From a virus (taxonomy: Duplodnaviria > Heunggongvirae > Uroviricota > Caudoviricetes), in IMG/VR virus record IMGVR_UViG_2609460005_000001: a DNA stretch of 4,479 nt. One strand, written 5' to 3'. Position 1 is the stretch's first letter. Each line of letters starts with the position of its first letter. Position numbers and translations under genes: made by a program. Positions 1 to 3,880 of the stretch are shown here, one piece after another. The notes beneath the pieces are model-generated. The model saw only the letters and a program-made list of their open reading frames with translations, was not told the origin of the DNA and made no database searches.

Positions 1-89
1 TCTGATGGAAATGGAAGCCACGCAAGCACCTTAAAATCACCATCATACACTAAATCAGTAAGTTGGCAGCATTACCTAAACACTGCACT

Positions 90-645: not shown

Positions 646-666
646 TGTATAAATAAGGAGCACACC

Positions 667-831
667 ATGCAATATGCCATTGCAGGGTGGCCTGTTGCTG
701 GCTGCCCTTCCGAATCTTTACTTGAACGAATCACCCGTAAATTACGTGACGGATGGAAACGCCTTATCGACATACTTAATCAGCCAGGAGTCCCAAAAAA
801 TGGATCAAACACTTATGGCTATCCAGACTAA
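667..831 (+). CDS. cIII: CIII (54 aa; inhibitor of FtsH-mediated CII degradation)
   Basis: Not in the ORF track because it is under the length cutoff. ATG at 667 is preceded by a strong SD TAAGGAG (654-660). Translation [54 protein letters not shown] matches lambda CIII as I recall it. Stop TAA at 829-831. Confidence 0.9.
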   Translation: MQYAIAGWPVAGCPSESLLERITRKLRDGWKRLIDILNQPGVPKNGSNTYGYPD

Positions 832-2782: not shown

Positions 2783-2940
2783 AGCATCCTCACGATAATA
2801 TCCGGGTAGGCACGATCACTTTCGTCTACTCCGTTACAAAGCGAGGCTGGGTATTTCCCGGCCTTTCTGTTATCCGAAATCCCCTGAAAGCACAGCGGCT
2901 GGCTGAGGAGATAAATAATAAACGGGGGCTGTATGACTGA
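2779..2940 (+). CDS. orf60a-like small protein, 53 aa, apparently truncated relative to lambda orf60a
   Basis: Below the track cutoff. ATG at 2779 overlaps the exo stop (ATGA 2779-2782). Translation [53 protein letters not shown] resembles what I recall of lambda orf60a, which follows exo in the same arrangement. The stop at 2938-2940 lies inside the start of the downstream methyltransferase gene. Confidence 0.55.
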
Positions 2941-3490
2941 TTTCACCGGAAGCAATACTCCTGCCGAACATCGCGACAGCTGGCGCACACCACCAGAGAT
3001 TTTTGCTGCGCTTAATGCAGAGTTCGTTTTTCAACTTGATGCTGCCGCCAGCGAAAAAAACCGACTATGTCGGCTTTTTATCTCACAGGAGCAGAACACA
3101 TTAACCACTTCATGGCCTGAAGCAATGGGATATGCCTCTGGTTATGTCTGGTTGAATCCACCATACAGCAATATTTCCCCTTTTGTGAAAAAGGCAGCCA
3201 CTGAAAACAAATTCAGTAGTGTGGGATGTGTAATGTTATTGCCTGCTGACACATCTGTCGGATGGTTTCATGAAGCGATACAAACCGCCAGTGAGGTCAG
3301 ATTCATCACGGCAGGACGACTGGCATTTATTAACCCACTCACTGAGAAACCCGTCAGTGGAAATAATAAAGGCTCGATGCTCATTATCTGGCACCCATAC
3401 CCCCGTACACACTGCCACTTTACGACCGTTGATCGTGGAGAGTTGATGGCGTTCGGCTCAAGGATTCTTGCCCGTCGGGAGGCTGCATGA
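2933..3490 (+). CDS. Phage Dam-family DNA N6-adenine methyltransferase (185 aa), orphan with no cognate restriction enzyme in the window
   Basis: 185-aa ORF with the catalytic motif-IV tetrapeptide NPPY (in ...YVWLNPPYSNISPF...) and an N-terminal WRTPPEIFAALNAEFVFQLDAAAS segment typical of the small phage Dam family. Assignment is by motif and pattern recognition, not a search. Confidence 0.8.
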   Translation: MTDFTGSNTPAEHRDSWRTPPEIFAALNAEFVFQLDAAASEKNRLCRLFISQEQNTLTTSWPEAMGYASGYVWLNPPYSNISPFVKKAATENKFSSVGCVMLLPADTSVGWFHEAIQTASEVRFITAGRLAFINPLTEKPVSGNNKGSMLIIWHPYPRTHCHFTTVDRGELMAFGSRILARREAA

Positions 3491-3570
3491 CAACCACGGA
3501 ATGCATTTTTCTGGCAGCGGGCTTCATATTCTGTGTGCTTATGCTTGCCGACATGGGACTTGTTCAATGA
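3487..3570 (+). CDS. Candidate 27-aa hydrophobic micro-protein (MTTTECIFLAAGFIFCVLMLADMGLVQ), coupled to both neighbours
   Basis: Not in the track (too short). Its ATG at 3487-3489 overlaps the methyltransferase stop TGA at 3488-3490, and its stop TGA at 3568-3570 overlaps the ATG at 3567-3569 of the next ORF. The core IFLAAGFIFCVLML is long enough for one transmembrane helix. No independent SD was seen; support is purely structural. Confidence 0.3.
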   Translation: MTTTECIFLAAGFIFCVLMLADMGLVQ

Positions 3571-3782
3571 CACCTCAGCAGGAAAACGCCCTTCGCAGCA
3601 TTGCCCGTCAGGCTAATTCTGAAATCAAAAAAGCCAGACAGCAGTTTCCGGATAAAAACGTCGATGACATTTGCCGTAGCGTACTAAAGAAGCACCGCGA
3701 AACGGTAACGCTGATGGGATTCACACCGACTCATTTAAGCCTGGCGATCGGCATGTTAAACGGCGTCTTTAAGGAACGGTGA
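3567..3782 (+). CDS. Hypothetical protein, 71 aa from ATG 3567 (track ORF 3468..3782 begins at a TTG inside the methyltransferase gene)
   Basis: Open frame with mixed charged/helical composition: MTPQQENALRSIARQANSEIKKARQQFPDKNVDDICRSVLKKHRETVTLMGFTPTHLSLAIGMLNGVFKER. The start is ambiguous between ATG 3501 and ATG 3567; 3567 is preferred because of the ATGA coupling with the micro-ORF and because it avoids overlap with the methyltransferase. I do not recognise a family. Confidence 0.5.
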   Translation: MTPQQENALRSIARQANSEIKKARQQFPDKNVDDICRSVLKKHRETVTLMGFTPTHLSLAIGMLNGVFKER

Positions 3783-3803
3783 ACATGAAAAGCAAAATCA
3801 TCA

Positions 3804-3826
3804 GGGAGCTACAGGCTCCTTTTTTA
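3804..3826 (+). terminator. Candidate intrinsic terminator between the 71-aa ORF and the TraR-like gene
   Basis: Stem GGGAGC (3804-3809) / GCTCCT (3815-3820) with a terminal G-U pair, loop TACAG, immediately followed by TTTTTTAT (3821-3828). Short stem but a clean T-tract. Confidence 0.45.
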
Positions 3827-3880
3827 TTGTTCGCATTCATCCTCAAGCGTATTAACCAACAATTCAGGGATTAATGGAAG

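What the first reader, a model, noticed from the sequence alone, without database searches (positions are those of the whole stretch)
3487..3570. Unannotated 27-aa hydrophobic micro-ORF start/stop-coupled between the methyltransferase and the 71-aa gene
The reading frame MTTTECIFLAAGFIFCVLMLADMGLVQ exactly fills the gap between two genes with ATGA overlaps at both ends (3487-3490 and 3567-3570). That geometry is typical of translationally coupled operon genes and unlikely by chance. The peptide resembles small single-pass membrane peptides such as type I toxin-like or phage membrane modulators. It is invisible to standard ORF callers.
Basis: partly seen in the sequence, partly recalled or inferred. 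Interest (0 to 1): 0.65.

Follow-up and report, generated by a model that had tools for sequence, protein, structure and literature searches.

The report
Hidden membrane micro-gene in lambdoid phages
A 27-codon reading frame for a greasy, membrane-type peptide sits between two early genes of lambda-like phages, lambda included; its mutations are mostly silent, as in a real gene, yet genome annotation and the literature read this stretch as part of the neighbouring gene orf61.

Summary
ORF 3487-3570 (MTTTECIFLAAGFIFCVLMLADMGLVQ) fills the gap between a phage Dam-type methyltransferase (2933-3490) and the 71-aa orf61 (3567-3782), with ATGA overlaps at both ends.

The window is the exo-xis region of a lambdoid prophage. 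The same 84 nt occur in phage lambda and in 58% of complete E. coli genomes.

- **Coding evidence:** 322 clean copies gave 27 distinct mutations; 15 fall on codon position 3 of this frame and 14 are synonymous (7.4 expected, P=0.006). Of variants seen at least five times, 8 of 10 are synonymous (P=9e-4).
- **Rival start rejected:** the frame of the 93-aa orf61 (ATG 3501) shows no constraint. Periodicity switches to the orf61 frame at 3567.
- **Origin:** distant orf61 homologues (Klebsiella, Enterobacter phages) join the upstream gene directly by ATGA. The micro-ORF is therefore a lineage-specific 80-nt insertion that took over a strong ribosome-binding site.

No protein family, RNA family or RNA structure matches. 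Most likely it is a translated, translationally coupled small membrane peptide of unknown target. A type I toxin identity is not supported. Translation itself is unproven. Published "orf61" deletions also destroy this ORF.

The parts
3487..3570 (+). 27-codon micro-ORF plus stop; peptide MTTTECIFLAAGFIFCVLMLADMGLVQ
   Evidence: One search lists the ORF. It is 100% identical in lambda. In 322 clean copies there are 32 nucleotide haplotypes and the peptide is unchanged in 281. Synonymous changes are 14 of 27 against 7.4 expected, P=0.006; for variants seen at least 5 times, 8 of 10, P=9e-4. It is present in 3142 of 5426 complete E. coli genomes.
3477..3482 (+). Shine-Dalgarno GGGAGG, 4 nt before the micro-ORF ATG, lying inside the 3' end of the methyltransferase gene
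   Evidence: Anti-SD duplex energy is -10.3 kcal/mol; about 2% of window positions reach -8 or lower. The same junction GGAGGC(N)GC-ATGAC precedes orf61 homologues in Klebsiella and Enterobacter phages.
3487..3490 (+). ATGA: stop of the upstream gene overlapping the micro-ORF start
   Evidence: In every locus checked, whether the upstream gene is orf63 (several alleles) or the methyltransferase, its TGA overlaps this ATG. Homology between the window and lambda starts exactly here.
3502..3546 (+). Codons 6-20, uninterrupted hydrophobic core CIFLAAGFIFCVLML, flanked by E5 and D22
   Evidence: whole-peptide GRAVY 1.62; 15-residue core with Kyte-Doolittle mean 2.87; no Lys or Arg; two acidic residues.
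3567..3570 (+). ATGA: micro-ORF stop overlapping the orf61 start
   Evidence: The orf61 start has only a weak SD here (-3.9 kcal/mol), against -5.6 in alleles without the micro-ORF and -9.5 to -10.3 in distant homologues. The 3567 A>G variant (35 loci) gives a GTG start and is synonymous in the micro-ORF.
3567..3782 (+). orf61 proper (71 aa), the downstream coupled gene
   Evidence: RefSeq CDS; phrog_303. Codon periodicity of variation switches to this frame at 3567: 15 of 18 common variants are synonymous, P=4e-6. Distant homologues align over residues 1-71.
2933..3490 (+). Phage Dam-type N6-adenine methyltransferase, the upstream coupled gene in this window (orf63 takes its place in lambda)
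   Evidence: Pfam PF05869, E=2e-56; NCBIfam TIGR01712.
3487..3566 (+). 80-nt lineage-specific insertion, bounded by the direct repeat ATGACA (3487-3492 and 3567-3572)
   Evidence: In Enterobacter phage BHUENT3 a homologue of this same methyltransferase (...LLARREAA*) is joined by ATGA directly to the orf61 homologue. The same holds with unrelated upstream genes in Klebsiella phages KpnBHU6, RothD and Kp4864-1.

Best explanation
The 84 nt are a real, young protein-coding gene of the lambdoid pL early operon.

How it is proposed to work:
1. Ribosomes finishing the upstream gene (orf63 in lambda, the Dam-type methyltransferase here) restart at the overlapping ATGA. In this window a strong GGGAGG site helps them.
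2. They make a 27-residue, very hydrophobic, slightly acidic peptide that most likely inserts into the inner membrane as a single short helix.
3. They terminate on a second ATGA that hands them to orf61, whose own ribosome-binding site is weak in this arrangement.

The peptide sequence itself is under purifying selection, so it is more than a passive coupling spacer. Its target is unknown. By analogy with other bacterial peptides of about 30 residues, it would modulate a membrane protein or a membrane property early after infection or induction.

Shown here: the geometry, its conservation in all contexts, the frame-specific selection, the hydrophobicity, and the insertion origin.
Inferred: translation, reinitiation coupling, membrane insertion, function.
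For: **1. Frame-specific purifying selection.** In 3490-3566, 27 distinct mutations fall 6/6/15 on codon positions 1/2/3 of this frame. Fourteen are synonymous against 7.4 expected (P=0.006). Among variants seen at least twice, 12 of 20 are synonymous (P=0.002); at least five times, 8 of 10 (P=9e-4). The other two plus-strand frames show none: 6 of 27 against 7.9 and 7.8 expected. The most diverged copy found (E. coli CRE444, 7 differences) has 5 synonymous and 2 non-synonymous changes and an intact ORF.

**2. Periodicity switch.** Periodicity of variation switches to the orf61 frame at 3567.

**3. Geometry kept in all contexts.** Unrelated upstream genes (orf63 alleles, methyltransferase) all end in an ATGA overlapping this ATG. 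The mosaic joint with lambda lies exactly at the ATG.

**4. orf61 starts at 3567, not upstream.**
- The frame-0 extension carries G>R (45 loci), T>A (91) and H>Y (11).
- The commonest variant, 3498G>T (132 loci), puts a TGA in that frame.
- Alleles without the micro-ORF (L114, L115, PhiR5_1) and distant homologues start at the equivalent Met.
- ATG 3501 has no SD: -2.6 kcal/mol, equal to the background mean.

**5. Ribosome-binding sites.** Strong SD before the micro-ORF (-10.3) and weak SD before orf61 (-3.9), against -5.6 to -10.3 where orf61 lacks the micro-ORF.

**6. Hydrophobicity** well beyond composition (P=0.003).

**7. No RNA explanation.** No Rfam hit in the region, and folding z-scores of +0.6 and +1.7.
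Against: - No direct evidence of translation was available.
- A review of the lambda ribosome-profiling study (PMC8614690) lists only a 7-aa and a 31-aa extra peptide in this block, not a 27-aa one. The primary paper is not held. Footprints here would have been credited to the overlapping annotated orf61.
- All copies are at least about 92% identical, so statistical power is modest (P about 1e-3).
- Low-frequency non-conservative variants exist: I14K, G12V, D22G and Q27stop.
- The ORF is absent from distant relatives, so it is young and could still be a proto-gene.
- The peptide has no basic residue, and its uninterrupted hydrophobic core is only 15 residues, which is short for a membrane span.
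- No family, structure or partner is known.
Confidence: 0.68

Rival explanations
1. Coupling device only. The ORF is translated, but its sole role is to carry ribosomes from the upstream gene to the weak orf61 start. The peptide is a by-product with no function of its own.
For: ATGA overlaps at both ends in all contexts. The orf61 SD is weak where the micro-ORF is present and stronger where it is absent. The ORF arose from an insertion between two genes that were already coupled. The micro-ORF never occurs without orf61 downstream in the loci sampled.
Against: A pure spacer needs only an open frame of the right phase. It would not show an excess of synonymous over amino-acid-changing substitutions, nor hydrophobicity far above compositional expectation. 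The ancestral direct ATGA junction already coupled orf61 to a strong SD, so the insertion adds nothing for coupling.
Confidence: 0.15
2. No separate gene. The region is the N-terminal extension of a 93-aa Orf61 that starts at ATG 3501, or further upstream as in the lambda annotation. This is how 933W and Phi24B and the exo-xis literature treat it.
For: The frame is open from 3468, and 93-aa, 104-aa and lambda 61-aa versions are deposited. ATG 3501 is invariant in the sample.
Against: In that frame only 6 of 27 mutations are synonymous against 7.9 expected (P=0.85), with common radical changes; a TGA at 3498 in 132 loci rules out every start upstream of 3498 (the TTG 3468 and lambda-type starts), though not ATG 3501. 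There is no SD. Alleles with a different upstream gene, and all distant homologues, begin at the 3567-equivalent Met. RefSeq calls the 71-aa form. Published models could not place residues 1-23 in the fold (PMC8614690). The invariance of ATG 3501 is explained by codons E5 and C6 of the micro-ORF.
Confidence: 0.05
3. Chance ORF in a non-coding spacer. The insertion happens to be open, and the substitution pattern is a sampling accident.
For: Openness alone has P=0.28. Total divergence is small. The ORF is lineage-specific.
Against: The synonymous excess is specific to this frame and strengthens with variant frequency, down to P=9e-4. Hydrophobicity has P=0.003. The start, stop and phase are intact in all 322 clean copies, apart from a stop at the last codon in 4.
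Confidence: 0.07
4. The selected frame is the antisense ORF 3554..3420 (44 aa here, 61 aa in lambda), which shares third codon positions with the micro-ORF.
For: It shows a weaker synonymous excess, 11 of 27, P=0.04. Such an 'echo' frame is equally significant for the bona fide orf61 control, so the test alone cannot separate strands.
Against: Every antisense-synonymous change is also sense-synonymous, while four sense-synonymous changes alter the antisense peptide. Its only start codon is destroyed by 3552C>T in 11 loci. It runs across the mosaic joint, so its C-terminal half differs completely between the window and lambda. It opposes pL transcription, and promoter-like sites are at the chance level.
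Confidence: 0.02
5. Type I toxin: a small membrane-damaging peptide kept silent by an antisense RNA.
For: Size and hydrophobicity are in the range of TisB, Ibs, DinQ and ShoB (the comparison sequences were recalled from memory).
Against: The ORF is embedded in an operon and start/stop-coupled to both neighbours. It has no promoter of its own, no antisense RNA family and no stable structure. It has no basic residues, whereas the listed toxins have 1-4. It is carried by 58% of E. coli genomes only as part of repressed prophage early operons.
Confidence: 0.03

Closest known systems
Small hydrophobic inner-membrane proteins of enterobacteria (for example KdpF at 29 aa, YohP at 27 aa, AcrZ, MgtS, CydX), which bind and tune larger membrane complexes
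   Same: Size (27 aa). One hydrophobic helix. GRAVY 1.62, against 1.89 for KdpF. Like KdpF, it has no basic residue and is encoded inside an operon next to larger genes.
   Different: No sequence similarity to any of them, and no Pfam, NCBIfam or PHROG family. The neighbouring genes encode soluble proteins (a DNA methyltransferase or orf63, and orf61), not a membrane complex. It is phage-borne and expressed only from pL. No partner is known.
Hydrophobic intergenic smORFs of Enterobacteriaceae predicted to be coding (the 'Entero67K' set, PMC11188072)
   Same: An unannotated, hydrophobic, lineage-restricted smORF. That study reports many such ORFs lying within 10 nt of a neighbouring gene, and a sizeable share overlapping it by 1-4 nt, and links this to termination-reinitiation.
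   Different: The peptide was not found in the supplementary files held for that paper. Here the ORF overlaps both neighbours, has a traceable insertion origin, and lies in a model phage where it has been read as part of another gene.
Termination-reinitiation (ATGA/TGATG) translational coupling in bacterial and phage operons (Huber et al. 2019, cited in PMC11188072; established knowledge)
   Same: 4-nt stop/start overlaps on both sides. The downstream SD is weak where coupling is available.
   Different: Coupling was not measured here. In this window the micro-ORF also has a strong SD of its own.
Type I toxins (TisB, IbsC, DinQ, ShoB, Hok/Ldr)
   Same: A short hydrophobic peptide.
   Different: No antisense RNA, no own promoter, no cationic residues, and an operon-internal position.
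The 31-aa small ORF downstream of orf61 (window 3779/3785-3874; called 'orf2313' in PMC8614690)
   Same: A second tiny ORF in the same gene block, starting 3 nt after the preceding stop. It is missing from the RefSeq record examined and from reference lambda, but is annotated in some phage records.
   Different: It is reported as translated in lambda (PMC8614690). It is not hydrophobic overall (GRAVY -0.01). It overlaps a terminator-like hairpin. It shows no significant synonymous excess here (12 of 33, P=0.16).

Membership tests
Protein-coding gene (generic) | Excess of synonymous over non-synonymous substitution in its own frame, relative to a neutral expectation and to the other frames | tested here: met
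   14 of 27 synonymous against 7.4 expected, P=0.006. For variants seen at least 5 times, 8 of 10, P=9e-4. The other plus-strand frames give P>0.8.
Protein-coding gene (generic) | Start, stop and phase maintained across copies and genomic contexts | tested here: met
   322 clean copies all have the ATG and no frameshift; the only nonsense variant hits the last codon (n=4). ATGA is kept with orf63 and with the methyltransferase upstream.
Protein-coding gene (generic) | Direct evidence of translation (ribosome footprints, tagged product, mass spectrometry) | not testable with these tools
   The primary lambda ribosome-profiling paper is not held. A review of it mentions only 7-aa and 31-aa extra peptides. 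With no Lys or Arg the peptide has no tryptic cleavage site, so standard proteomics would probably miss it; this is my inference.
Small single-pass membrane protein | A hydrophobic segment long enough to span the bilayer | tested here: inconclusive
   The uninterrupted core is 15 residues (6-20). A 21-residue window (6-26) includes D22. The summed Hessa-scale values are about 0 to -3.5 kcal/mol, without position weighting. No dedicated predictor such as TMHMM or DeepTMHMM was available.
Small single-pass membrane protein | Membrane localisation shown experimentally | not testable with these tools
   Needs fractionation or imaging of a tagged peptide.
Type I toxin-antitoxin toxin | A cis- or trans-encoded antisense RNA antitoxin, and an independent transcription unit | tested here: not met
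   No Rfam family in 3400-3600. Minus-strand promoter-like sites are at the chance level, 2 found against 1.7 expected. The ORF is start/stop-coupled to both neighbours.
Type I toxin-antitoxin toxin | Toxicity or membrane depolarisation on expression | not testable with these tools
   Experiment needed.
Translationally coupled (termination-reinitiation) gene | Stop/start overlap of 1-4 nt with the neighbouring gene | tested here: met
   ATGA at 3487-3490 and at 3567-3570, conserved in all loci.
Translationally coupled (termination-reinitiation) gene | Downstream translation depends on upstream translation | not testable with these tools
   Only indirect support: the orf61 SD is -3.9 kcal/mol here, against -5.6 to -10.3 where no micro-ORF precedes it.
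N-terminal part of Orf61 (93-aa annotation; phrog_303 long form) | Purifying selection in the orf61 frame upstream of 3567, and presence of the extension in homologues | tested here: not met
   6 of 27 synonymous, P=0.85, and a TGA at 3498 in 132 loci. Homologues and alternative alleles start at the 3567-equivalent Met.

The most novel reading that the evidence does not exclude
The peptide is a recently born gene. An 80-nt insertion landed exactly on the start codon of orf61, captured its strong ribosome-binding site, and yielded a new membrane peptide that came under selection and spread through E. coli lambdoid prophages.

In laboratory lambda the true orf61 is a frameshifted pseudogene. There, the 27-aa peptide rather than Orf61 would be the active product behind the 'orf61' effects on prophage induction and lysogenisation reported from deletion mutants.
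Probability: 0.25. Interest if true: 0.7.

Novelty: new member of a known kind. Interest (0 to 1): 0.55.

Why it matters
- **A probable extra gene in phage lambda.** The 84 nt lie in lambda itself and in Shiga-toxin phages, in the exo-xis block whose small genes influence the lysis-lysogeny decision and Stx prophage induction.
- **The orf61 literature needs re-reading.** Work on "orf61" (yeast two-hybrid, structure modelling, deletion phenotypes) used protein sequences that read this stretch in the wrong frame.
- **The published deletions are confounded.** The lambda deletion removes codons 13-27 of the micro-ORF. The Phi24B deletion removes its last three codons and its stop. Lambda's own orf61 is frameshifted. 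Phenotypes assigned to Orf61 may therefore belong, wholly or partly, to the 27-aa peptide.
- **A datable case of gene birth.** The insertion at a coupled gene junction has a clear before state (Klebsiella and Enterobacter phages) and after state (E. coli lambdoids).

Tried and rejected
- **Family searches.** Pfam, NCBIfam and PHROGs gave nothing significant for the 27-mer; the best were phrog_21538 at E=0.68 and MtrF at E=0.03, below its cutoff.
- **Distant homologues of the peptide.** tblastn of the 27-mer against 50,697 phage records found only copies at least 92% identical, plus one chance hit.
- **Degraded "distant" orf61 proteins.** Hits at 51-52% identity (P0104, P0110) proved to be indel-ridden or degraded copies and are useless for selection tests. 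L116 and L117 are truncated prophage remnants.
- **RNA element.** No Rfam hit and no excess structure.
- **Tandem-duplication origin.** The 80 nt show no significant similarity to the orf61 5' end (P=0.17) or to anything else in the window.
- **Frameshift fusion to Orf61.** A -1 shift at A-TTT-TTC would fuse the peptide to Orf61. I considered this by eye and rejected it, because the frame-0 stretch up to 3566 is unconstrained.
- **Literature search by peptide sequence.** No paper matched, and it is absent from the held supplements of the enterobacterial microproteome study. The lambda ribosome-profiling paper could not be read.
- **Structure prediction.** The tool's minimum is 30 residues, so the 27-mer could not be modelled.
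Full report
**1. What the window is**

The 4.5-kb window is the leftward early (pL) operon of a lambdoid prophage. The evidence for each gene:
- The Rfam cIII thermoregulator lies at 654-712.
- bet, exo and a DUF1317 (orf60a-like) gene follow, as annotated in an identical RefSeq prophage.
- Next is a phage Dam-type N6-adenine methyltransferase at 2933-3490 (Pfam PF05869, E=2e-56; TIGR01712).
- Then comes the 71-aa gene that the lambda literature calls orf61 (3567-3782; phrog_303).
- The last two are the TraR/DksA-type orf73 and a DUF4222 gene.

The window is 100% identical over 3300-3800 to phage PhiR30_1 and to a prophage of E. coli RM14723.

**2.

ORF 3487-3570 encodes MTTTECIFLAAGFIFCVLMLADMGLVQ. 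Its ATG overlaps the methyltransferase stop (ATGA, 3487-3490). Its TGA overlaps the orf61 ATG (ATGA, 3567-3570). RefSeq leaves 3491-3566 empty. None of 59 full-length RefSeq rows lists a CDS for it.

It is not entirely unknown to databases. The exact 27-mer is deposited as "hypothetical protein" in some GenBank records and in UniRef, and was called on 981 contigs.

An open frame of this length is unremarkable on its own (P=0.28). Its hydrophobicity is not (P=0.003), and it is the most hydrophobic ATG-ORF in the window.

**3. The same 84 nt are in phage lambda and most E. coli**

Homology between the window and lambda begins exactly at the micro-ORF ATG. In lambda the ORF is 100% identical and overlaps the stop of orf63 instead.

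The 84 nt occur in 3142 of 5426 complete E. coli genomes, as 4255 copies.

The annotated lambda "orf61" (30839..31024, complement) is an artefact. It starts inside orf63 and reads the micro-ORF region in another frame. It then enters true orf61 and is cut short, because laboratory lambda has A7 where other phages have A6 (window 3632-3637). In Stx phages the same stretch is annotated as the first 22 residues of a 93-aa Orf61 starting at the equivalent of ATG 3501. Published models could not place these residues in the fold (PMC8614690).

**4. Which frame is under selection**

I collected 342 loci from IMG/VR, GTDB genomes and metagenomes, using anchors in orf61 only. After dropping indel-ridden copies, 322 cover the micro-ORF. 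They give 32 nucleotide haplotypes, and the peptide is unchanged in 281.

Between 3490 and 3566 there are 27 distinct mutations:

| Measure | Micro-ORF frame | orf61 frame (3468/3501 reading) |
|---|---|---|
| Mutations on codon positions 1/2/3 | 6/6/15 | 15/6/6 |
| Synonymous, all variants | 14 of 27 (7.4 expected, P=0.006) | 6 of 27 (7.9 expected, P=0.85) |
| Synonymous, seen at least twice | 12 of 20 (P=0.002) | 3 of 20 (P=0.96) |
| Synonymous, seen at least five times | 8 of 10 (P=9e-4) | 1 of 10 (P=0.97) |

- In the orf61 frame the common variants are radical: G>R in 45 loci, T>A in 91, H>Y in 11. The commonest variant of all, 3498G>T in 132 loci, creates a TGA in that frame.
- From 3571 onward the pattern flips to the orf61 frame. 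There, 31 of 57 mutations fall on position 3, and 15 of 18 common variants are synonymous (P=4e-6).
- The most diverged copy found (E. coli CRE444, 7 differences) has 5 synonymous and 2 non-synonymous changes and an intact ORF.

The only other frame with a signal is the antisense frame that shares third positions (11 of 27, P=0.04). Such an echo is equally strong for the orf61 control, so the test cannot by itself choose the strand. Three points favour the sense frame:
- Every antisense-synonymous change is also sense-synonymous, while four sense-synonymous changes alter the antisense peptide.
- The sole antisense start codon is lost in 11 loci.
- The antisense ORF runs across the mosaic joint.

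**5. orf61 starts at 3567**

Four lines besides the substitution pattern support this start.
- A second allele class (L114, L115, PhiR5_1) has a 250-aa gene ending 7 nt before the orf61 ATG. It has no micro-ORF and has its own GAGG site.
- Distant homologues at 30-47% identity in Klebsiella, Enterobacter and Vibrio phages align from about residue 1 to residues 68-71.
- 3567A>G gives a GTG start in 35 loci and is synonymous in the micro-ORF.
- ATG 3501 has no Shine-Dalgarno pairing: -2.6 kcal/mol, which equals the background mean.

**6. Origin**

In Enterobacter phage BHUENT3 a true homologue of this window's methyltransferase (...LLARREAA*) ends in CGGGAGGCCGC-ATGA, and that ATG starts the orf61 homologue directly. 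Klebsiella phages KpnBHU6, RothD and Kp4864-1 show the same junction behind upstream genes (a 255-aa protein in KpnBHU6, and a gene annotated as a methyltransferase subunit in RothD, with a near-identical 3' end in Kp4864-1) that show no detectable similarity to the window's methyltransferase.

The window has CGGGAGGCTGC-ATGACA, then 74 nt, then ATGACA-orf61. The micro-ORF is therefore a lineage-specific 80-nt insertion (80 = 2 mod 3) bounded by an ATGACA repeat. It took over the strong ribosome-binding site that originally served orf61.

The anti-SD duplex energies fit this picture:

| Start codon | Energy (kcal/mol) |
|---|---|
| Micro-ORF, this window | -10.3 |
| Micro-ORF, lambda context | -3.1 |
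| orf61 behind the micro-ORF | -3.9 |
| orf61 in alleles without the micro-ORF | -5.6 |
| orf61 homologues in Klebsiella and Enterobacter phages | -9.5 to -10.3 |

The source of the 80 nt is unknown. It shows no similarity to the orf61 5' end or to the rest of the window. When I anchored the search on the micro-ORF itself, orf61 always followed, and only orf63 or the methyltransferase preceded.

**7. What the peptide looks like**

GRAVY is 1.62. The uninterrupted hydrophobic core is residues 6-20, flanked by E5 and D22, and there is no Lys or Arg. No Pfam, NCBIfam or PHROG family matches. No homologue below 92% identity exists in phage genomes. No RNA family or stable structure covers the region.

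It resembles the roughly 30-residue membrane modulators of enterobacteria more than type I toxins. Type I toxins have their own transcription unit, an antisense RNA and cationic residues. None of these is seen here.

**8. Best explanation and its limits**

The most likely reading (about 0.7) is a real, young gene. It would be translated by reinitiation after the upstream gene, helped here by a strong SD. It would yield a small membrane peptide whose sequence is under selection, and pass ribosomes on to orf61.

Shown: geometry, conservation, frame-specific selection, hydrophobicity, insertion origin.
Inferred: translation, coupling, membrane insertion, function.

Against this reading:
- There is no direct evidence of translation. 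The review of the lambda profiling study names only 7-aa and 31-aa extra peptides. Footprints here would have been assigned to the overlapping annotated orf61.
- Divergence is low.
- Some radical low-frequency variants exist.
- The hydrophobic core is short.

**9. Consequence for published work**

The primers in PMC4699033 map as follows:
- The lambda delta-orf61 construct removes micro-ORF codons 13-27 plus the first 13 codons of the already frameshifted orf61.
- The Phi24B construct removes micro-ORF codons 25-27 and its stop, plus orf61 codons 1-55.

Phenotypes ascribed to orf61 (PMC6213356) are therefore confounded with loss or alteration of the 27-aa peptide. In lambda the peptide is the more plausible active product.

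**10. Verdict**

This is a credible new small gene of a known kind: a hydrophobic, operon-embedded micro-protein. Such ORFs are common among predicted intergenic smORFs of Enterobacteriaceae (PMC11188072). It is of above-average interest because it lies in lambda and Stx phages, corrects a long-standing mis-annotation, and offers a clean case of gene birth at a coupled junction.

Noticed in passing
window 3779-3874 (ATG at 3785): A second tiny ORF (29 aa from the ATG, 31 aa from the GTG; MNMKSKIIRELQAPFLLFAFILKRINQQFRD) starts 3 nt after the orf61 stop and overlaps a terminator-like hairpin at 3803-3821 followed by a T-run. It is annotated in some phage records, and a review says it is translated in lambda (31 aa). 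The synonymous excess here is not significant (12 of 33, P=0.16).
   Followed up: partly
window 3632-3637; L002 (lambda) 1646-1652: Laboratory lambda carries A7 where this window and most prophages have A6, which frameshifts the true orf61 after 23 residues. The annotated lambda orf61 is a chimera of an out-of-frame read of the micro-ORF, 23 residues of orf61 and a 6-residue tail. Yeast two-hybrid and modelling work on 'lambda Orf61' used this artefact.
   Followed up: yes
loci L014-L027 (genome-contig hits): Assemblies labelled Shewanella, Bradyrhizobium, Pseudomonas, Paenibacillus, Kitasatospora and others contain this region with the lambda-specific A7. This looks like laboratory lambda DNA contaminating those assemblies.
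   Followed up: no
window 3567-3782: RefSeq often names the 71-aa or 93-aa orf61 product 'cell division protein ZapA'. The Pfam ZapA match is only 16.1 bits (E=0.014), below the 23.8-bit cutoff. The name looks like an over-propagated annotation.
   Followed up: partly
window 3474-3491; L380 1190-1206; L381 1190-1206; L383 ~690-706: The junction motif (C/A)GGAGGC(N)GC-ATGAC is conserved at the 3' ends of the upstream genes of several phages; the KpnBHU6 and RothD genes show no detectable similarity to the window's methyltransferase (BHUENT3's is its homologue). It seems to travel with the downstream gene as its translation-initiation region, marking a recombination joint inside the last codons of whichever gene lies upstream.
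   Followed up: partly
L114 1238-1993; L115 741-1493; L385 1-693: An alternative E. coli allele replaces orf63 and the micro-ORF with a 250-aa gene of unknown function (no Pfam hit on record) and gives orf61 a different N-terminus (MTIEHNN...). Homology to the window resumes about 20 nt into orf61.
   Followed up: partly
window 654-712 and 667-831: The Rfam Lambda_thermo (cIII thermoregulator) matches at 88.5 bits, which identifies ORF 667-831 as cIII.
   Followed up: no
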